Assembly (NCBI RefSeq): GCF_004010195.1
Contig: NC_057737.1
Location: 24,279,707-24,343,706 of the forward strand
Reading direction: 5' to 3'
Source of the DNA: Chiloscyllium plagiosum
Taxonomy: Eukaryota
DNA length: 64,000 bases
The notes under the pieces are model-generated. The model saw nothing but the letters and a program-made list of their open reading frames with translations. It made no database searches and was not told the DNA's origin. This document shows, in pieces, positions 19,959 to 50,965 of the stretch; position 1 is the stretch's first letter, and each line of letters begins with the position of its first letter. A program made the position numbers and the translations under genes.

Positions 19959-20920
19959 NNNNNNNNNNNNNNNNNNNNNNNNNNNNNNNNNNNNNNNNNN
20001 NNNNNNNNNNNNNNNNNNNNNNNNNNNNNNNNNNNNNNNNNNNNNNNNNNNNNNNNNNNNNNNNNNNNNNNNNNNNNNNNNNNNNNNNNNNNNNNNNNNN
20101 NNNNNNNNNNNNNNNNNNNNNNNNNNNNNNNNNNNNNNNNNNNNNNNNNNNNNNNNNNNNNNNNNNNNNNNNNNNNNNNNNNNNNNNNNNNNNNNNNNNN
20201 NNNNNNNNNNNNNNNNNNNNNNNNNNNNNNNNNNNNNNNNNNNNNNNNNNNNNNNNNNNNNNNNNNNNNNNNNNNNNNNNNNNNNNNNNNNNNNNNNNNN
20301 NNNNNNNNNNNNNNNNNNNNNNNNNNNNNNNNNNNNNNNNNNNNNNNNNNNNNNNNNNNNNNNNNNNNNNNNNNNNNNNNNNNNNNNNNNNNNNNNNNNN
20401 NNNNNNNNNNNNNNNNNNNNNNNNNNNNNNNNNNNNNNNNNNNNNNNNNNNNNNNNNNNNNNNNNNNNNNNNNNNNNNNNNNNNNNNNNNNNNNNNNNNN
20501 NNNNNNNNNNNNNNNNNNNNNNNNNNNNNNNNNNNNNNNNNNNNNNNNNNNNNNNNNNNNNNNNNNNNNNNNNNNNNNNNNNNNNNNNNNNNNNNNNNNN
20601 NNNNNNNNNNNNNNNNNNNNNNNNNNNNNNNNNNNNNNNNNNNNNNNNNNNNNNNNNNNNNNNNNNNNNNNNNNNNNNNNNNNNNNNNNNNNNNNNNNNN
20701 NNNNNNNNNNNNNNNNNNNNNNNNNNNNNNNNNNNNNNNNNNNNNNNNNNNNNNNNNNNNNNNNNNNNNNNNNNNNNNNNNNNNNNNNNNNNNNNNNNNN
20801 NNNNNNNNNNNNNNNNNNNNNNNNNNNNNNNNNNNNNNNNNNNNNNNNNNNNNNNNNNNNNNNNNNNNNNNNNNNNNNNNNNNNNNNNNNNNNNNNNNNN
20901 NNNNNNNNNNNNNNNNNNNN
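19959..20920. other. Assembly gap (962 N)
   Basis: Run of N. Confidence 1.
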
Positions 20921-21020
20921 CCCTCACCTTGACCTCCCTCCACCTATCGCATTTCCAAAGCCCCTCCCCCAAGTCCCTCCTCCCTACCTTTCATCTTAGC
21001 CTGCTGGACACACTTTCCTC

Positions 21021-41041: not shown

Positions 41042-41287
41042 TCCTTTGACCCACAACTGGTTCTAACCACAGAGCATTTTACACATCATAAAACGATTTT
41101 GGATTCAGGAGCCTATGTGGCCCAGAGAAGCATAAACCTCCGCAGTAAACTTGCACTGGGACACTATGTAATCATTCCAAGTACCTTTTCACCAGATGCT
41201 GATGGAGCGTTTATGCTACGTATATTCACTGACATTCCAATTCAGTTTCATCAGGGATTCAACCTTGTAACAGAAGGAATGGACTGA
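41042..41287 (+). CDS. Calpain last coding exon (…LGHYVIIPSTFSPDADGAFMLRIFTD…EGMD*)
   Basis: GxYVIIPSTFxP...FxLRIF closes domain III; strong polypyrimidine acceptor; TGA at 41285-41287. Confidence 0.93.
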   Translation, partial: SFDPQLVLTTEHFTHHKTILDSGAYVAQRSINLRSKLALGHYVIIPSTFSPDADGAFMLRIFTDIPIQFHQGFNLVTEGMD

Positions 41288-41388
41288 ACTTCTGTTCGAC
41301 CTATGTGTTTTGACCAGCACACTTGTGACTGGAAGAGGAAGAAAAGATTCTGCTGATTAGTGATAAAATCAACTAGGAGTTCAAAGAG

Positions 41389-41565
41389 GTAAAAACAATG
41401 ACTGCAGATGCTGGAAACCAGATTCTGGATCAGTGGTGCTGGAAGAGCACAGCAATTCAGGCAGCATCCGAGGAGCTTCGAAATTGACGTTTCGGGCAAA
41501 AGCCCTCGAAGCTCCTCGGATGCTGCCTGAACTGCTGTGCTCTTCCAGCACCACTGATCCAGAAC
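41389..41565. mobile_element. Miniature palindromic PLE-derived element in the calpain 3' UTR
   Basis: 16-bp TSD ctaggagttcaaagag at 41373-41388 and 41566-41581; 59-bp inverted arms at 41423-41481 and 41506-41564. Confidence 0.9.
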
Positions 41566-41766
41566 CTAGGAGTTCAAAGAGTCTCATACATACATGTGAT
41601 ACAAGTAAGTACAGGTGTATACAGGAGGTACAAATAACAAGATGATACAAGAAAGTACCTTTTTCACTAAGATTTCAGCCATCTCACAGGCCATTTATTT
41701 ACAAGGGTTCAATGTGATTGTTGTATTACAGTTGAATACAAGCTGTCTGTAGATCAATTCTGCCTA

Positions 41767-41772
41767 AATAAA
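41767..41772 (+). terminator. Candidate polyadenylation signal of the calpain
   Basis: AATAAA about 480 nt after the stop, followed by T-rich sequence. Confidence 0.45.
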
Positions 41773-43549
41773 ACGCTAATTGAATTATAATTTCCTATTC
41801 GGTTCTCTTATATAGACCATGTCTTTTTATTTTTTGCAGTTTTGATTGTGGTCTGAAATGAGAAACTGTTTAAAAAAGCCAAGGATTACTGGGGGATTAT
41901 ATTTTTTAAATGGCACATGGGATGTAGGCATTACTGACAGGGACAGCGTATATTGCCCAACCCTGTTGCATTTGAACTGAGTGGCTTGCAAGGCCATTTC
42001 AGAGGGCACTTAAGTGTCAACTATATCACTGTGGGTCTGGCATCATATGTAGGCCAGATCAGGTAAGGATGGCAGATTCCCTTCCCTCTCGGATATTACT
42101 AAAAAGACAGCATTCTATGTAACACAATTCAGTGACATTGGGATTCTTTATACATTGCAAACTATTTATTTTTTCCTTCTCCTACTTTAATTTCAGCCTT
42201 ACAATGTGCAAAGATACCACAAATAGATAAATAGATAGGTTTCAATCCTATTGATAAAATAACTTAATATCAGCTGCTAGTTCAAGCATGCAATGGGAAA
42301 TTTAATTGAAATTTAAAAGCTCAAATAAATGTAAATTTGAAAATTTCAATTTGAAACGAGAGTCAATGAAAACAGCTGAGGTGGTTTTAATTTGCCTTGA
42401 AAATTAGGAAAGATTGTCTGGGAAGAAATCAGTTGACCAGTAATTAAATTTGTCAGGCCAAGAACACTGCCGAGGCTATCGACAAAAGAAACCCTGAAGT
42501 CAATTGGTGCCATGTTTGAATTTGGATTAACATTGAAAGAAGGAAAATTCAACCATAATCTAGCCAATTATTCTGGAAAAGAAAGTTGCACTTTTTGTCA
42601 GAAAGAACATCAAAGAAGAATTTGGTCATGCCTGGAATCTTTCAGTCATGTTTTATTTCTGTTTTAAAGATATGATGAAAACACCTTTTGAAAATGGAAA
42701 GCAAGGCTTCTTGAGAGCTCCTGAATCAGAGAGATTGGTAATTAATAGGAATGCCTACTTAGAATAAAAGAATAGTGACAGGGGAAAAAAATAACACAGA
42801 ATCAAATGGGAATAGGAATATCTCATCTTAATTGGAGTCAAATGGAATCTATCAAGTAAAAGTGAAGTGACAGTGAAACAAATTAATTAATAGCTTTCTC
42901 TTGGGAAATATTTGTTCCTTTGCCTATGAACTTTTATTTGAAGATAACTAAATTGAATGATTTTGCCACCAACCAAAACACTGGGACAAGGCAAAAAGGA
43001 TACACAGGCCCCAAACCAACTTTTAATTTTTTGAAAAGATACCTGAAAATGAAAATTGCATGGCACGATCTTGGGACACTGGTGTAAGCATGCAGAAGTG
43101 ATTGTTACATTTAAAGTACCTATCTTAAAGAATACATTAGAAGAATGCACTGAAGAATAGGTCTCAGACATATACACCAGTTAAAAGATTAGTTACTGTG
43201 ACCTGAAGAGGAAGAAAACAGTTTAAATGAGAAGGCATTCATACATAATCCAAAGCGAACCTGACTTTAAACAAACAATGTGGTACTGGTGAGAGAGGGT
43301 AAGAATTAAAGTAAAAATAACTTTGAGTTAGGATGATTGAAGGCTAAGGGGGGGGAGATGTTGTAATAAGAAAAATCCTAAGGATGGATACAGGTGAAGG
43401 CAGAGCTGAATTGTTTATAATTGCACGCATAATCAATTCCTGCAATCTAATACACAATAATCAGCTAAGAATGAACCTAAATTCTCATAATATGATAGCA
43501 TAGATTCAGCACAGAATAAGGGAGAAGGGGAGGATATATCTAACATTTT

Positions 43550-44391
43550 TGTATTCTCTTGAGGGATGTGGAATTGCGGGTGGGGCGGCATTTGTTGCGT
43601 GTCTCTGGTTGTCCTTGGGAGGTTGGTGATGAAACACTGCAGTCTGTTTGCTGTGGGTGAGTGGGCCCGCGGTGTAGGTGGGGATTCCAGAATTTTGACC
43701 GAGTGTCAGATGAGATATAGTTGGGATGGTGGGTGGTTAGATGGTGGGTGGTTTGAAGGTGGACTTGCGGGTGTGTCTGCTGCCCTTGTCCTTCTGGATT
43801 GGGGGGGAGAGGAGTTCTGGGTTTGGAGTGTGATGTCTGGCGATATTTGGTAAGTTTTTGCTGTGTGTCTTGTGGATGGTGCGCGGTGCTGCTGTTGTGT
43901 GTCAGTGTGTCAGGATGCTGTGCTAGTCAGCAGGCTGCTTTGTCCTGGATGGTGTCGGGTTTCTTGGGTGTTGTTGGGGCTGCATCCTTCCAGGCAGGTG
44001 GGGAATATTCCATCGTCCTCCTGACTTGTGCGGTCTTTAGGGGATCTGGAGGTGAGTTATTTGCTGCAGTATTCCTAGCATCTGACCTGATCTTGTACCC
44101 AATGTGTTTATGTGGCTTGTCCATTTCAGTTCCTCATCTATGATAACCGCCTCCCCACCCCCACCCAAAGTTGATGGTGGGGTGTTCAGTGATGGTAATG
44201 ACATTGAGTCTCAAGGAGGAATGGTTAGGTCATTAGAGATGGTCATTGACTGAAATTTGTGTCATACAAATGTTACTTTCCACTTGTCAGCACAAGCCTG
44301 GATATCATCCAGGTCTTGTATTTGAGTATGGACGGTTCAGTATTTGAGGAGTTGCAAATGGTGCTGATAATTGTGCAATCATCAGTGAACA
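43550..44391 (-). mobile_element. Non-LTR LINE 3' part (CR1/L2 group, family uncertain), A>G hypermutated over about 43560-44010
   Basis: TAQVRRTMEYSPPAW..AAPTTPKKPDTIQDKAAC is an RT C-terminal motif; homologous to 52355-52540 and the inverse of 51690-52090. Confidence 0.8.
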
Positions 44392-45547
44392 TCTGGAAAG
44401 CGAAAGCAACAGGGAGTATGGAGTCAAGTAGAAAGATAGTCAGCAGGTTAGCATGTGTGCAGTGTTTAAGTTCAAGGCAGACTCGGAATAAAGCAAAAAG
44501 AAGGATACCTTAGGACGTATTACTAGAGGTGATGGAAATCATGTGGATAAGAAAATTAGCATTAAGGTGCTTTACCTGAATGCTTATAGTAATTGTAAAG
44601 TAGATGAATTAACAGCACAAATCATTGTAAATGATTATGATGTGGGAGGCATCACAGAGACGTGGTTGCAGGGGGTTCAGGACTGGCAGTTAAACATGCA
44701 AGGATTTACAATTTATCAAAAAGGCAGGGAGGTGGGCAGAGGGGGCGGGGTTGCCTTGTTAGTTAAGAATGAAATTAAATCTATGGCACTGAATGACGTA
44801 GGGTCAGATGATGTGGAGTCTGTGTGGGTGGAGTTGAGGAACCATAAAGGCAAAAAAAAGCCATAATGGGAGTCATGTACAAACCTCCCAGCAGTGGTCA
44901 GGACAAGGTGCGCAAGATGCACCAGGAAATAGATACGGCATGTCAGAAAGGCAAGGTCATGGTGATCACGGGGTCTTCAATATGCAAATGGACTGGGTGA
45001 ATCATGTTGCTGGTAGATCCAAAGAAAGGGAATTCATGGAATGCTTACAGGATGGCTTTTTGGAACAGCTTGTGATGGAGCCCACAAGGGAGCAGGCTAT
45101 TCTGGACTTAGTGCAATGTAATGAGCCAGACTTTATAAAAGATCTTAAAGTCAAGGAACACTTAGGAGATAGCAATCATAATATGGTAGAGTTCAGTCTC
45201 TAGTTTGAAAGAGAAAAGGCAAAATCGGATGTAATGGTGTTACAGTTAAATAAAGGTAATTACAGGGGCATGAGAGAGGAACTGACTAAGATTGACTGGA
45301 AGCAGAACCAAGTGGGGAAGACAGTAGAGCAACAATGGCAGGAGTTTCTGGGTGTAATTGAGGACACAGGTTCATTCCAAAGAAAAGAAAGATTACCCGG
45401 GTGGAATTAGACAGCCATGGCTGACAAAGGAAGTCAGGAAATGTATCATAAAAAAGAGAGAGCCTATAAAGTGGCCAAGAGCACTGGGAAATCAGAAGAT
45501 TGGGAAGACTGCAAAAACAAGCAGCGGATAACAAAGAGAGAAATAAG
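44392..45547 (+). mobile_element. CR1 LINE AP-endonuclease region
   Basis: KVLYLNAYS...GITETWL...GRGGGVALLVK...ESVWVEL...EPTREQAILDLV...LGDSNHN. Confidence 0.9.
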
Positions 45548-46099
45548 GTCGTGTTCCAGGTATCGGATGAAGAGGCACTTACAAATGGCACCCTTGCAGG
45601 TGCCCATATCTAGCCCTTTGGTCTGAAGGAAGTGGGAGAATTCGAAGAAGAAATTGTTGAGGATGATGATCAGTTCAGCCAATCGAATGAGAGTGTCATT
45701 GGAAGGATACTGGTTGGGTTGGCGGGAGAGGTAGGAACAGAGGACCTAGAGGCCTTTGTCATGGAGGATGGATGTGTACAGGGACTGGATGTCCATGGTG
45801 AAGATGAGGCTTTGGGGGCCGGGGAACTTAAAGTCATGGAGGAGGTGGATGGTGTGGGTGGTATTCCGGATATATGTGGGGAGTTCCTGGACCAAGGGCG
45901 ACAGGCTGGTGTCAAGGTATACAGAGATAAGTTCGGTTGGGTAGGAGCAGGCTGAGACAATGGGTCCACTGGGGCAGTCAGGTTTATGAATCTTGGGGTA
46001 GGAGGTAGAACCGGGTGGTGCAAGGTTCCCAGACTATGAGATTGGAGGCTGTTGGTTGGAGATCTCCTGAGGTGAAGAGGTTGTGGATGGTCTGGGAGT
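45548..46099 (-). mobile_element. PLE reverse-transcriptase fragment
   Basis: Minus strand reads FYLLPKIHKPD...TMDIQSLYTSI...LNNFFF..SHFLQTKGLDMGT, typical PLE RT motifs. Confidence 0.85.
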
Positions 46100-46315
46100 T
46101 CCGCTCTATGCCACTCCCCACCCTGAATTGAAATATATCACCGTTCCTTCACTATCGCTGGGTCAGGATCCTGGAATTCCCTGTGGATCGGCCTGCACCA
46201 TATCGACTGCAACAGTTTAAGAAGGCAGCTCGCCACCACATTCTCAGATGGCCCATGAGCAAATGGACGCTGGTGGGCCAGCAATGCCAATCTCCCACAA
46301 GTGACTAAAAAAAAT
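46100..46315 (+). mobile_element. Short 3' fragment of the 43550-44391 LINE family, moderately A>G mutated
   Basis: Aligns to 51875-52090 (ggtcAGGatcc versus ggtcAAAatcc). Confidence 0.75.
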
Positions 46316-46480
46316 TCACCACTCTGAAGTTGGTTAAGACATCTTGCGCCAGAAACCTATCTGAAACGTTGTCTGTTAACTCATCTGCCAGGATACCTTT
46401 GCCAGGCTGATTCGCCAATCTATATGGAGAGTTAAATCACTTCTGATTATCAAACTCAGTTATTGGTAAAATGTTAGAGT

Positions 46481-46695
46481 GTTTGGCAAGTTTTGAGAAG
46501 ATTTGTACCTCAGGTTGATGTGGGTTTTCTCACTGTGCCGGAGGGTTCGTTTTCGGATGTCTCGTCGCCATGTTGGGTGGTGTCGTCGTGAGCCTCCAGT
46601 GGAGGCTTTGCAGGGGCTCACTGGTGCTGTTGCCTGGTGTGGTGGTGGGGCATCTGGGGGGCAGGCCTTTCAGCTCAGCGAGCAAACTTACATCC
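46481..46695. mobile_element. Miniature palindromic PLE (related to family C), A>G hypermutated
   Basis: 10-bp TSD atgttagagt at 46471-46480 and 46696-46705; gaagatttgta start as at 26212; self-complementary ends. Confidence 0.7.
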
Positions 46696-46879
46696 ATGTT
46701 AGAGTCTGTTCCAAATAATGTAATAGCAGAGTATTTAGAAATATTTAAGCAGAGTCAGCATGGAGTAAGTGTGCCTGACAAATTTATTAGAATTCTTTGA
46801 GGATGTAGCAAAAAAGGACAGATAAAGGGCAAGCAGCAGTTGGAATCCATTGGATTTTAAGAAGGTATTTGTTAAGATG

Positions 46880-47434
46880 GCAGGGGCTCTCTGCAGCCTG
46901 TTCATTTTCTGCTGGGCGCAGATTGGGAATGTGATGCTCCCGACTTGCCTTGATGGATGCGGCTGCAGTGCCACTCGGGAGGTTTGGCATCACCGGGACG
47001 GAGCGACCTGTTTGATTGGCGGCACATTCACAACAATCCACTTCCTCCACTTTCCTGGCCCTCAGTGGCGGCATGTGTGTGCTGCCTATGGGACGTGGTG
47101 TGGGAATTCACTGGGGATCCTCGGACAGTACCTTCTGGGCCCATGGCCGCTTCCGTCTGGAAGGACGGGAGTTGGAGGATGTGTGACAGCACCGTCACTT
47201 GCAGGTTCCTCTCCAGGTCACTGATCATCACAGCTGGGAAATGTATTGCCGTTCCTTTGGTGTTGCTGGGTTGGAATCCTGGAATTCCTTCCCTGGTGGC
47301 ATTGTGGGTTGGCCTACAAAAGTGGATGCAGAGGTTCAAGAAGGCAGCTGACTGCCACCTTCTCGCAGGAACTCGGGATGGGCAATGAATGCTGGCCTGT
47401 CTGTGATGCCCACATTCAATGAATGAATGAAAAC
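46880..47434 (+). mobile_element. LINE 3' part (same family, forward orientation), heavily A>G hypermutated
   Basis: Aligns to 51690-52090; (ATGA)n tail. Confidence 0.85.
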
Positions 47435-47559
47435 ATATGTAATACTTGTTTAAATTCGAGCCACTGACTGTTCAATTTCAGGTTTTTAAATGTATTTTGT
47501 TAATCTATCATAGGCAATTTGCTATTCAAACTTTATTTTGTTCAACTTTAAGACTCCAG

Positions 47560-47900
47560 TTTCAGAACAAACCGTCTCAATTGCAAAAGAATTTAAAACG
47601 GTACAATGTTAATGTCACTATTTCCCAACACTCCATCACAAGAATTTTAATTATTTCTTTCTTGCTACTTACTACGTTTAAAATATCCCAATTTTTGGCT
47701 GATTCCTCAACATACCATTCCAGGAATTTATGTTTCACAGTATTAGTGCTAATTAGGTTTACCCAGTCTACATGCAAATTGAACTTGCCCATTATTACTA
47801 TGCTACTAATGTTACATACAATCCCAATTTCCTCAATGATACCATGCCCAACATTACCACTCCTGCTTGCTGGCCTATAAACAACTCCCCTTGCTATTTA
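47560..47900 (-). mobile_element. Old CR1 endonuclease fragment
   Basis: MGKFNLHVDWVN resembles CR1 EN MGDFNxxxDW. Confidence 0.6.
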
Positions 47901-47974
47901 TTATCTCTACAAATCTGGTTCAATGTCTTGATCATTTGACTGAAGGTACTGCCTTAGTATTATATTGATTGTGT

Positions 47975-49117
47975 GTGGGAAATATCGTGTCTCACAAACT
48001 TGATTGAGTCTTTTTGAAGAAATCACAAAGAGGATTGATGAGGGGAGAATGGTAGACATGATCTATTTGGACTTCAGTAAGGCATCCGACAAGGTTGTTT
48101 CTCAGACTGGAGGTCTGTGACCAGTGGAGTACCACACGGATCAGTGCTGGGACCACTACTTTTAGTCATTTATATAAATGATTTGGATACAAGCATAAGA
48201 GGTACAGTTATTAAGTTTGCAGATGACACCAAAATTGGAAGTGTAGTGGACAGTGAAGGAGGTTACCTTGGAGTACAATGGGATCTTGATCAGATGGGCC
48301 AATGGGCTGAGGAGTGGCAGATGGAGCTTATTTTAGATAAACGCGAGGTGCTGCATTTTGGGAAAGCAAATCTTAGCAGGACTTATACACTTTTAATGGT
48401 AAGGTCCTCGGGAGTGTTGCTGAACAAAGAGACCTTGGAGTGCAGGTTTATAAGCTCCTTGAAAGTAGAATCGCAAGTAGACAGGATAGTGAAGGCATTT
48501 GGCATGCTTTCCTTTATTGGTCAGAGTACTGAGTATAGAAGTTGGGAGGTCATGCTGTGGCTATACAGGGCATTGGTTAGGCCACCTTTGGAATACTGTG
48601 TGCAGTTCTGGTCTCCTTCCTATTGGAAAGATGTTGTTAAACCTTATAAAGATGATGCCAGGGTTGGAGGATTTGAGATCTATGGAGAGGCTGAACAGGC
48701 TGAGGTTGTTTTGCCTGGAGTGTCAGAGGCTGAGGGGTGCCTTTATAGGAGTTTATAAAATCATGAGGGGCATGGATAGGGTAAACAGACAAAGTATTTT
48801 CCCTGGGGTGGGAGAGTCCAGAACTAGAGGGCATAGGTTTAGGGTGAGAGGAGAAAGATATAAAAGAAACCTAAGGGACAACGTTTTCACGCAGAGGGTG
48901 ATACGTGTATGGAATGAGCTGCCAGAGGAAGTGGTAGAAGTTAGTACAATTGCAACAGTTAAAAGGCACCTGGATTGGTATATGAATAGTAAGGGTTTGG
49001 AGGGATATGGGCCGGGTGCTGGCAGGTGGGACTATATTGGGTTGGGATATCTGGTTGGCATGGACGGGTTGGACCGAAGGGTCTGTTTCTGTGCTGTACA
49101 TCTCTATGACTCTATGA
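47975..49117 (+). mobile_element. CR1/HER1-type LINE, RT to 3' end
   Basis: VTSGVPHGSVLGPLL..YINDLD...KFADDTKIG...LVRPPLEYCVQFWSP; (TCTATGAC)n tail. Confidence 0.95.
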
Positions 49118-50587
49118 CACAATTTAGACTAATTCTCAACATTTAGATTATCATATTACAGGAGACAGATTTCAGTTACATTGATAATTTTTTCTGCTAT
49201 ATTTCTTCATCAAAGGACAGGATCTATTAATTAAGAAGAGGTGGATCTAAGTAAGAAATCATCTTTGTCAGGTGAAGTAAGATGACTTCATCTTATGAAG
49301 CAGCATTGTTCCAAATGCCTGTGATTTCAAATAAATTTGTTGAACTACAATGTGGTGTTGGATAACGTCTGACTTTGTCCACCCCAGTCCAACTCTGACA
49401 CCTCCACATGCAGATTAATAGGCATAAGTTTGACTAAATAAATAGTTCAGATTTAATATTCTTTTGATTACATTCTACAGATTGTAAATTTAGAAAACAT
49501 TTTTAAAAATAGCTCACAGATTGATCTCAAAACTAGTGGTTCACATTTTAGTCCTGTAAGAAATATATGAATGTTGTGCACAACAAAATTATTTCACATT
49601 AAAGTAAAAAAATGACTATTTTCTGTAAAATTATGTCATTACTCTCAGCTCTATTTTACTATTTTAAAACCAAACAAATAATACAAAGGCAGTCAAGAAA
49701 GTGTAGGTGGTTATTGATATGTTACAAATATATACGTATATATCAGTTAAAAAATTGATATATTATAAATATATTACAGCTTTTGAGGCTGTGTACATTC
49801 AAGATGAAATTATATTTTCATTTGTATCCTACACCACTCACTCAAGATTTCTGTATAGCTATTTGAAACATGCTATTTCTATGTATAAAATTAAGTAACA
49901 CTCAGCAAACATTTATATAAAATGAAGACGTTTAGTAAACAAATTTCGCACTTTGCGTGAGTAATCAAATCATTCATTATTATCAGCATACTTTTGATGG
50001 GCTACTGTCTCACTTCCCAGTTCATTAATCTGACATGCTTATGTTTAAATTGATACATTTGAAAGGCCAGCTGAGCAACTGACAATTACGGGCATTTGTG
50101 TATAATTTACCGAGTTTTCAGCATCAAAACCAGCATGGAATTATTTAGAATGATTAGAATGAATCCTTTTGGGAGTGGTAACAATAATTGCAAAAATTAA
50201 ACAACAAACACTGCAAGAGTTAAACATTGCCCGATAGTCTAACACTTGCCCAATGTAGTTTGAAGTGAGGTACTGTAAGATTATGGTATTTAATTTTGTC
50301 ACATATTTAACTGCATTTGTTTAAAATGTTTAGAAAAGAAAGCATTAAAAATTTTGTATCATTTTCATTTTTTTAATAAAACTTGTAACATCATTATATT
50401 AAAAACACCACCTTTCAAAATATTAGAGATAAATTTTAAAAATATATTTACAATTAAGCCCATCAGGTTATCCAGAATTACACTGAACTGAATGGGACTA
50501 TTTACATTCGAAGGAGCTAAAGGTCCCTTTTCAGCTCTTCCTTCAGAAATTAAGCACTAGTTTTGGGGAGGAAACACCACTTCAATT

Positions 50588-50965
50588 TTACTTCTCCTTT
50601 TCCTTCTTCCCTTCCCAGCTAGATTTCAGAAAGTCACTTCTTAGTAGTCGATAGAAAAGCACAATATTCATTAAAGTCATGATGGCCATTCCTACACTCC
50701 CGATGCTGTAATTTATTAAAGGGATGTTGTCACGGTTTAGGACCAGCCAGCGTGTCATCCAGGCCAGCGTGCTAATACGGAAGATAACATAGGTTCCCAG
50801 ATTGATGATGCTGTTAATGCGGAAGCAAGTGGTTTTGTTCATGTTGGCCATCAGAAGAATTTGCCTCAGGTGCAGGAAGATGGAGTTGATTTCAACCAGT
50901 AAAGCTACGACAGCAAACCCAACGTAGCTGAAGAGGCTCACAGAAATTCCAAAACAAGTGATTAC
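50588..50965 (-). CDS. TLCD2: Last coding exon of TLC domain-containing protein 2 (TLCD2-like), 125 aa VITCFGISV...KKEKEK*
   Basis: Multi-TM TLC-domain C-terminus (YVGFAVVALLVEINSIFLHLR, FRI..LAWMTRWL, RLLRSDF); acceptor ttgtttatttccctag, phase 0. Upstream exons were not found and probably lie beyond 64000. Paralog assignment is from memory. Confidence 0.85.
   Translation of the reverse strand, partial: VITCFGISVSLFSYVGFAVVALLVEINSIFLHLRQILLMANMNKTTCFRINSIINLGTYVIFRISTLAWMTRWLVLNRDNIPLINYSIGSVGMAIMTLMNIVLFYRLLRSDFLKSSWEGKKEKEK

What the first reader, a model, noticed from the sequence alone, without database searches (positions are those of the whole stretch)
43560..47434. Strand-specific A>G hypermutation confined to mutually complementary repeats: a possible germline fossil of ADAR hyper-editing
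Seen: four repeat pieces carry dense A>G changes on the + strand relative to in-window relatives, whichever way the element points. Forward copy: ccttctGGGcccatgGccGcttccGtctGg (47131) versus cttttcAAAcccatgAccAcctccAtctAg (51793), and ctcagtGgcGgca (47061) versus ctcagtAgcAgca (51722). Reverse copy: ctctGGttGtccttgGgaGg (43603) versus ctctAAttAcccttgAgaAg (52403). Self-hairpin PLE: gttGggtgGtGtcGtc (46572) versus gctAggcgAcAtcAtc (26293). A residues preceded by G are mostly spared. Intervening repeats without a close inverted partner (44392-45547, 46706-46875) stay A-rich. In the reverse copy the signal fades near 44010-44045, about where the forward partner's homology ends. Known: ADAR hyper-edits both arms of intramolecular dsRNA and disfavours a 5' G. 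Inference: a + strand RNA (same sense as the calpain, 2-6 kb past its stop) folded, was hyper-edited and was copied into DNA, either as a retro-transduced block or by cDNA-templated overwrite in place. APOBEC-type editing (G>A/C>T) or GC-biased conversion (A>G plus T>C) would not give this pattern.
Basis: partly seen in the sequence, partly recalled or inferred. Interest (0 to 1): 0.88.

Follow-up and report, generated by a model that had tools for sequence, protein, structure and literature searches.

The report
RNA-edited retrocopy with surviving source
A 6.9-kb stretch here is a copy of a locus elsewhere in the same genome, and about half of its adenines became guanines only in the segments predicted to pair with each other as RNA; most likely a transcript edited by the enzyme ADAR was copied back into inherited DNA by a jumping gene, making normally temporary RNA edits permanent.

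Summary
Observation confirmed, and the event is larger than reported. Window 42250-49117 is a collinear copy of an unedited locus, G000:C12:83116975-83125683. In stems predicted from the donor alone (a roughly 330-bp duplex closing a 3-kb loop, and an 82-bp hairpin), 149 of 291 donor A read G, against 117 of 1321 elsewhere. T>C is flat and 5'-G sites are spared. Family copies put the changes on the window's branch. Read-derived contigs from four samples of two species carry the G alleles in both long arms. C12 is the donor: the copy is cut at its 5' end inside an old repeat and ends exactly at the tail of a then-fresh CR1-type LINE. Best reading (0.88): an ADAR-hyper-edited transcript was reverse-transcribed by the LINE machinery (5' transduction) and fixed in the germ line. 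Calpain read-through is not needed, and the A-rich 44395-45548 piece is absent from the donor. Not shown: target-site duplication, donor transcription, empty site. This scan has noted similar fossils on other DNA, including this genome. My literature searches found only viral ADAR cases and APOBEC fossils.

The parts
42250..49117 (+). Whole duplicated block, inferred retrocopy of G000:C12:83116975-83125683
   Evidence: Collinear alignment with abrupt ends; the only close paralog in own-genome searches
42250..43559 (+). Old dispersed repeat, cut at its 5' side at 42250; unedited
   Evidence: Family homology starts at 42250 in the window for 8 of 10 family loci; in C12 it runs 30-250 nt further upstream for 9 of 10; A>G 24 of 482
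43560..44065 (+). Edited arm 1: reverse-oriented LINE-type 3' region, predicted to pair with arm 2
   Evidence: A>G 51 of 95; donor fold pairs 43564-44065 with 46879-47418
44066..44394 (+). Rest of the same reverse element, beyond the end of arm 2's homology; background level
   Evidence: A>G 9 of 80, G>A 8 in 44051-44394; 1 of 55 on the window branch
44395..45548 (+). 5' part (endonuclease region) of a different LINE family; not in the donor, stands where the donor has 1.8 kb of other sequence; unedited
   Evidence: Pfam Exo_endo_phos; 86-90% identical to dispersed siblings; 49 differences at 1124 sites from the sibling majority, A>G 8
45549..46096 (-). Reverse retroelement fragment (Penelope-like by recalled motifs; no Pfam hit); at most weakly edited
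   Evidence: A>G 26 of 136 against T>C 15 of 130, p=0.09
46097..46310 (+). Second forward copy of the same tail as arm 2; lightly edited, alternative partner of arm 1
   Evidence: 10 of 52 family-A sites A>G on the window branch; duplex with arm 1 -168.5 kcal/mol against a shuffled mean of -109.6
46517..46696 (+). Edited fold-back hairpin (82 bp in the donor); both arms changed on the same strand
   Evidence: 12 of 20 and 16 of 26; 25 of 46 on the window branch, 0 on the donor branch
46701..46880 (+). Unpaired LINE fragment, present in the donor, unedited
   Evidence: A>G 2 of 63
46879..47418 (+). Edited arm 2: forward LINE-type 3' region
   Evidence: A>G 70 of 150; 54 of 140 on the window branch, 1 on the donor branch
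47435..47968 (.). Old repeat fragment, unedited
   Evidence: A>G 5 of 159 in 47435-48009
47969..49117 (+). 5'-truncated CR1-type LINE ending in two copies of an 8-base unit; the block ends with it
   Evidence: Pfam RVT_1; same 5' truncation in donor and copy; only 6 shared derived sites of 1074; flanks differ right after the tail
41042..41287 (+). Context, not part of the block: reading frame with the end of calpain domain III and a stop
   Evidence: Pfam Calpain_III
50588..50965 (-). Context, not part of the block: last exon of a convergent TLC-domain gene
   Evidence: Pfam TRAM_LAG1_CLN8

Best explanation
Window 42250-49117 is a copy of a C12 locus with same-strand A>G changes at about half of the adenines in its mutually complementary repeats, most likely because a transcript of that locus was hyper-edited by ADAR and then reverse-transcribed into the germ line by a CR1-type LINE. 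Steps: (1) shown: donor and copy exist, C12 is the source, and the changes arose on the copy's branch. (2) Inferred: a + strand RNA of at least 7 kb ran through the C12 locus into a freshly inserted CR1-type element. (3) Predicted: its inverted repeats folded into a long stem closing a 3-kb loop, plus a local hairpin. (4) Inferred: ADAR deaminated about half of the A in both arms. (5) Inferred: the active LINE reverse transcriptase started at the 8-base-repeat tail (on this RNA, or on its own RNA with a switch inside the shared CR1 part), read inosine as G, copied about 7 kb and stopped inside an old repeat. (6) Shown: the copy is present with its G alleles in two species. The unedited piece 44395-45548 probably came later, by insertion plus deletion. 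No function is proposed; it is probably a neutral fossil.
For: Spectrum: in the donor-predicted stems A>G 149, G>A 17, T>C 23, C>T 33, A>C 7, A>T 7; 149 of 291 against 117 of 1321 outside, p=3e-56, while T>C is 23 of 310 against 90 of 1224, p=1.0. With all predicted duplex regions of 40 bp or more, unselected: 129 of 296 against 76 of 410, p=9e-13. Arm duplex -449.9 kcal/mol against a mean of -206.9 for 15 shuffles. 5' context T>A>C>G, matching the 5'-G depletion in PMC4365171 (passages). Polarity of change. No other hyper-edited copy among 315 aligned family pieces (highest A>G fraction 0.21, median 0.044). Donor polarity: 5' end (C12 is continuous across that point in organism B too) and 3' end (a second C12 locus, L107, shares the donor's 426-nt downstream flank at 87%). 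Tail element fresh at the time: 6 shared derived sites against 64 window-only and 68 donor-only of 1074. Not an assembly artefact: a contig of run X2 spans 42058-43958 with 7 other letters, another 46778-47288 with 2; organism B contigs span 42710-44148 (50 other letters) and 46778-47307 (22).
Against: No target-site duplication: the longest match between the two 40-nt flanks is 5 nt and not at the junctions. No intron loss: the donor-only segments of 620 and 401 nt are insertions in the donor, and the 113-nt gap does not fall on exact GT-AG ends. 3'-G enrichment is not significant (45/76 against 104/215, p=0.11) and A:C mismatches are not favoured (4 of 7 against 104 of 212 for A:U). Three shorter predicted donor duplexes (58, 85 and 62 bp, at window 44107-44165, 46291-46415, 45912-46095) show little or no excess. 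Part of the pairwise A>G count is G>A on the donor branch (10 and 12 sites in the two arms). No listed contig covers the hairpin 46517-46696 or bridges the 3' junction by 31 letters. The enzyme is inferred from its footprint only.
Confidence: 0.88

Rival explanations
1. The block was first duplicated (as DNA or as unedited RNA); later a local transcript, for example calpain read-through, was edited and its cDNA overwrote the locus in place.
For: Same strand as the calpain gene, whose frame ends 960 nt before the block. No target-site duplication. No outgroup with an empty or unedited site could be examined.
Against: Needs two rare events where one suffices. The block ends exactly at a LINE tail that was fresh at the time and is cut at its 5' end. 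Background divergence at non-A sites is similar in arms and flanks (0.109 and 0.141 against 0.105-0.156), so there is no sign of separate patches.
Confidence: 0.07
2. A DNA-level, strand-biased A>G process (error-prone gap filling of the polymerase-eta kind, or adenine deamination in an RNA:DNA hybrid or folded single strand) acted during or after duplication.
For: The 5' preference for T and A overlaps the WA motif of polymerase eta (recalled, not from a call).
Against: Changes track the intramolecular pairing of two arms 3 kb apart and stop where pairing stops. A>C and A>T are not raised (7 and 7 against 149). Deamination of the first-strand cDNA would read T>C on +, which is flat.
Confidence: 0.04
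3. Artefact, or an ordinary G-rich subfamily, GC-biased conversion or APOBEC editing.
For: The best read holders may include the source sample.
Against: G alleles in contigs from four samples, four studies and two species. Family copies carry A. T>C and G>A are not raised.
Confidence: 0.01

Closest known systems
ADAR hyper-editing of inverted repeats in RNA (Porath et al. 2014, PMC4365171; passages)
   Same: Clusters of A>G in both arms of nearby inverted repeats, with G depleted one base upstream.
   Different: There the marks are in RNA only; here they are in genomic DNA shared by two species. The downstream-G enrichment reported there is not significant here.
[quoted passage not shown]
   Same: Nearly 50% of adenosines changed in an inverted-repeat region and recorded by reverse transcription.
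   Different: Those are infectious retroviruses editing-marked in their own genomes. Here the template is a composite host transcript, the copying enzyme is a non-LTR element's, and the product is fixed in the germ line with its unedited source preserved.
APOBEC-edited retroelements fixed in vertebrate genomes (PMC4866542, PMC3880073, PMC12548423; passages)
   Same: A burst of one substitution type in one retro-inserted copy, fixed in the genome.
   Different: G>A from cytidine deamination of cDNA, independent of RNA pairing. PMC12548423 mentions one endogenous virus half with excess A>G but without the ADAR context.
5' transduction and chimeric insertions by LINEs (PMC8232201, PMC13174262; passages); CR1-tail dependence of mobilisation (PMC5470649, PMC5729268; passages)
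   Same: Upstream host sequence copied together with a LINE 3' end; an RNA that carries the CR1 tail with its 8-base repeat can be mobilised.
   Different: Described as very rare and mainly for L1, with target-site duplications; CR1 is said to be generally unable to make retrocopies. Here about 6 kb of upstream sequence moved with a truncated CR1-type element, without a visible duplication, and edited.

Membership tests
ADAR hyper-editing footprint | A>G only, on one strand | tested here: met
   149 A>G against 17 G>A, 23 T>C, 33 C>T in stems; polarised by family copies
ADAR hyper-editing footprint | Confined to long double-stranded regions, both arms | tested here: met
   three shorter predicted duplexes are not clearly edited
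ADAR hyper-editing footprint | G depleted 5' of the edited A | tested here: met
   25/75 against 124/216, p=4e-4; flat in controls
ADAR hyper-editing footprint | G enriched 3' of the edited A | tested here: inconclusive
   45/76 against 104/215, p=0.11
ADAR hyper-editing footprint | Preference for A opposite C (recalled feature) | tested here: inconclusive
   4 of 7 against 104 of 212 for A:U; too few sites
ADAR hyper-editing footprint | The template is transcribed and edited as RNA | tested here: inconclusive
   RNA runs laid on the donor gave cover only in repeats
ADAR hyper-editing footprint | Dependence on an ADAR enzyme | not testable with these tools
   Past event; footprint only
LINE-mediated retrocopy (5' transduction) | Source locus elsewhere; copy cut at its 5' end | tested here: met
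LINE-mediated retrocopy (5' transduction) | 3' end at the LINE tail | tested here: met
   Homology ends at 49117 after two 8-base units; siblings end in the same unit
LINE-mediated retrocopy (5' transduction) | LINE family active at the time | tested here: met
   6 shared derived sites of 1074 against 64 and 68 branch-specific
LINE-mediated retrocopy (5' transduction) | Target-site duplication (defining for L1; 'if present' for CR1 markers in PMC5729268) | tested here: not met
   No match over 5 nt between the 40-nt flanks
LINE-mediated retrocopy (5' transduction) | Intron loss (processed copies only) | tested here: not met
   Donor-only segments are donor insertions or a non-canonical gap; the copy looks unspliced
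LINE-mediated retrocopy (5' transduction) | Empty site in an outgroup | not testable with these tools
   No relatives' genomes are held; both species examined carry the block
CR1 clade (tail element 47969-49117) | Reverse transcriptase domain and 8-base terminal repeat | tested here: met
   Pfam RVT_1; tail; CR1 8-bp microsatellite per PMC5729268
CR1 clade (tail element 47969-49117) | Phylogenetic placement in the CR1 clade | not tested
   The label rests on the tail and on recalled likeness of the C-terminal translation
APOBEC-edited retroelement | G>A clusters on the element's sense strand | tested here: not met
   G>A 17 of 263 in stems

The most novel reading that the evidence does not exclude
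CR1-driven 5' transduction of ADAR-edited host transcripts is a recurring route by which RNA editing becomes heritable DNA in this lineage. Each donor-copy pair is then a single-molecule record of an ancient germline RNA: its strand, its long-range fold and the sequence preference of the ADAR that acted on it.
Probability: 0.55. Interest if true: 0.87.

Novelty: new variant of a known kind. Interest (0 to 1): 0.76.

Why it matters
A-to-I editing is normally lost with the RNA. This locus shows, with source and copy side by side, about 150 such changes entering the germ line in what was probably one event and persisting in two species. It gives a direct test of germline ADAR activity and specificity in a lineage where this is hard to assay, and a fossil structure probe of a 7-kb RNA with pairing across 3 kb. 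It also shows a CR1-type element moving about 6 kb of upstream sequence, although CR1 is thought to make few retrocopies. Practically, such copies look twice as old as they are (21-24% against 9-14% divergence) and can confuse repeat dating and RNA-editing calls. There is no evidence of a function.

Tried and rejected
RNA evidence: no RNA holder was listed for the window stretch. Two raw-read RNA runs and one guessed-RNA contig run laid on the donor gave cover only in repeated parts (one gave no reads at all), so transcription of the donor is untested. Host gene around the donor: 57 of the 81 frames of 85 aa or more in 50 kb were scanned with Pfam, giving one reverse transcriptase hit and no host gene; short exons would be missed. 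Splicing in the copy: not found. Target-site duplication: not found. A repeat spanning the joined flanks of the insertion site: no hit among the loci held. An apparent A>G excess in the last 270 nt of the tail vanished on polarising (2 of 57; 4 A>G over the whole element). G-rich subfamily: rejected. Calpain read-through as the source: unnecessary once the donor was found. Whether 44395-45548 entered by a template switch at the time of insertion or by later insertion plus deletion is not resolved; its lower divergence from its family (49 of 1124, against 68 of 1074 for the tail on the window branch) leans to later. Suh 2015 on CR1 requirements is not held and was seen only as cited.
Full report
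Observation. The quoted motifs are at the stated places, and the region is the most A-poor of the window. In-window relatives already show A>G far above G>A, for example 65 against 7 for the forward copy, but they are distant. Searching the genome with the two long arms returned the same best hit for both, 4 kb apart and in the same orientation on contig C12.

The block has an unedited twin. No other close paralog appeared in searches with the flanks or the hairpin (these score only the 40 best candidates). Against this twin, donor A reads G at 51 of 97, 29 of 55 and 70 of 165 sites in the three main pieces, and at 3-10% of sites in five control parts of the same block; T>C stays at 3-10% in the edited pieces.

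Direction of change. With 93 other loci as outgroups, sites where donor and family majority agree on A changed to G on the window's branch at 24 of 44 (arm 1), 54 of 140 (arm 2) and 10 of 52 (46097-46310); the donor's branch shows 0, 1 and 2. Flanks give 4 of 223, 1 of 55, 0 of 45 and 6 of 206. For the hairpin, with 18 family loci, it is 25 of 46 against 0. Some pairwise A>G are G>A on the donor branch (10 and 12 in the arms), so pairwise counts overstate the editing a little. None of 315 aligned family pieces exceeds an A>G fraction of 0.21.

The changes follow RNA pairing. Folding 4.6 kb of the donor alone gives four nested duplexes (53, 55, 38 and 188 bp) that pair 43564-44065 with 46879-47418, and an 82-bp hairpin at 46517-46696. 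In these three stretches 149 of 291 A are G, against 117 of 1321 in the rest of the block, and T>C does not differ. I chose these stretches from the fold knowing where the changes lie; the unselected test over all predicted duplex regions of 40 bp or more gives 129 of 296 against 76 of 410 (p=9e-13). Three shorter predicted duplexes show little excess. Both arms are changed on the same strand, and the signal in arm 1 ends at 44052, near the duplex end. The 5' neighbour ranks T 0.69, A 0.61, C 0.47, G 0.33; the 3'-G and A:C preferences are not significant. Leaving out 5'-C sites, which could reflect CpG decay in the donor, 108 of 204 remain.

Not an artefact. Contigs assembled from reads of four samples in four studies were laid on the block. 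Organism A run X2 has one piece over 42058-43958 with 7 other letters and one over 46778-47288 with 2. Organism B runs X9 and X14 have pieces over 42710-43971 (45 other letters), 42710-44148 (50) and 46778-47307 (21 and 22). With 51 and 70 changed sites in the arms, these pieces must carry most G alleles. X2 and X14 are guessed DNA; the kind of X8 and X9 is not on record; one holder may be the source sample. No listed piece covers the hairpin or bridges the 3' junction by 31 letters. Organism B also holds the donor. B differs by about 3.5%, donor and copy by 9-14% in unedited parts, so the event predates the split of the two species.

C12 is the source. The block begins inside an old repeat. 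In the window, homology to 8 of 10 family loci starts at 42250; in C12 it runs further upstream for 9 of 10, by up to 250 nt, and an organism B contig spans that point in the donor. The block ends at 49117, right after two copies of the 8-base terminal unit of a 5'-truncated LINE with a Pfam reverse transcriptase hit. The donor's downstream flank is shared by a second C12 locus, so the window's end is the derived one. Against 19 close siblings, donor and copy share only 6 derived sites of 1074 in this LINE, with 68 and 64 branch-specific ones: the element had just inserted at C12 and its family was active when the block was copied. A 5' cut, a 3' end at an active LINE tail and A>G on the LINE-sense strand all point to reverse transcription of a + strand RNA. 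These data cannot tell copying from the donor RNA's own tail from a switch out of an active element's RNA. No target-site duplication and no intron loss were found.

The A-rich middle. 44395-45548 is the 5' part of another LINE family (Pfam endonuclease; 86-90% to siblings; 57-70% to the tail element's family). It stands where the donor has 1.8 kb of other sequence and is unedited. It most likely arrived after the retrocopy, with a deletion; a template switch is possible.

Comparison with what is known. ADAR hyper-edits inverted repeats with a 5'-G depletion (PMC4365171, passages; PMC2873906, passages, which finds the A-to-G excess in RNA traces and not in DNA traces). Such marks were recorded through reverse transcription in two avian retroviruses (review PMC12925331, passage; originals not seen). 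Germline fossils of editing are documented for APOBEC G>A (PMC4866542, PMC3880073, PMC12548423; passages). 5' transduction is called very rare and CR1 generally unable to make retrocopies (PMC8232201, PMC5470649; passages), which fits a host RNA being moved only because it carried the tail (PMC5729268, passages). Six searches (listings and abstract starts only, open-licence library) showed no paper describing an ADAR-edited host transcript fixed as a retrocopy. Subscription journals are missing and no supplements were read, so this is not proof of absence. Earlier notes of this scan report similar fossils in this and other genomes, one with a surviving source that may or may not be this locus; I did not test them and they are not counted as support. 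Two of them named the avian retrovirus and APOBEC papers that I then checked.

Verdict. A real feature. It works like ADAR hyper-editing captured by reverse transcription, and meets the strand, pairing and 5'-context tests; it meets the source, 5'-cut, tail and timing tests for a LINE retrocopy but not the target-site duplication. New variant of a known kind; confidence in the mechanism 0.88; interest 0.76, raised by the preserved donor, the long-range stem and fixation in two species, and limited by the lack of any function and of direct RNA evidence.

Noticed in passing
L107 (G000:C12:83241481-83244770), positions 1367-2706: Inverted second copy of the donor's CR1-type tail plus about 460 nt of its downstream flank, 117 kb from the donor, about as old as the window's copy: a local duplication or a 3' transduction from the same locus.
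   Followed up: partly
window 44394/44395 and 45548/45549: The 5' part of a second LINE family replaces 1.8 kb of donor sequence; its 3' junction shows a possible short microhomology with the following element.
   Followed up: partly
L068-L072 (C17, C10 twice, C3, C1): Five loci give the same score, identity and length (306 bits, 70%, 836 nt) against 42250-43106, so a piece of this old repeat seems to ride inside a much younger, near-identical duplicated unit or element.
   Followed up: no
L062:2405-2456 (C12:83118405-83118456): A near-perfect 52-nt palindrome in the donor; 21 nt of one arm are missing both in the window copy and in organism B's donor contig, so it arose later in this species.
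   Followed up: partly
window 43711-43740: A 15-nt tandem duplication inside edited arm 1 that organism B lacks; it arose after the editing.
   Followed up: partly
window 41042-41287: The calpain frame ends shortly after domain III; I saw no obvious further domain in the short + strand frames of 41200-42300 and 49100-50700, read by eye and not scanned.
   Followed up: partly
window 41367-41645: A palindromic element whose two strands translate alike; related to dispersed short repeats.
   Followed up: no
window about 20000-21000: An assembly gap; the window holds 962 N.
   Followed up: no
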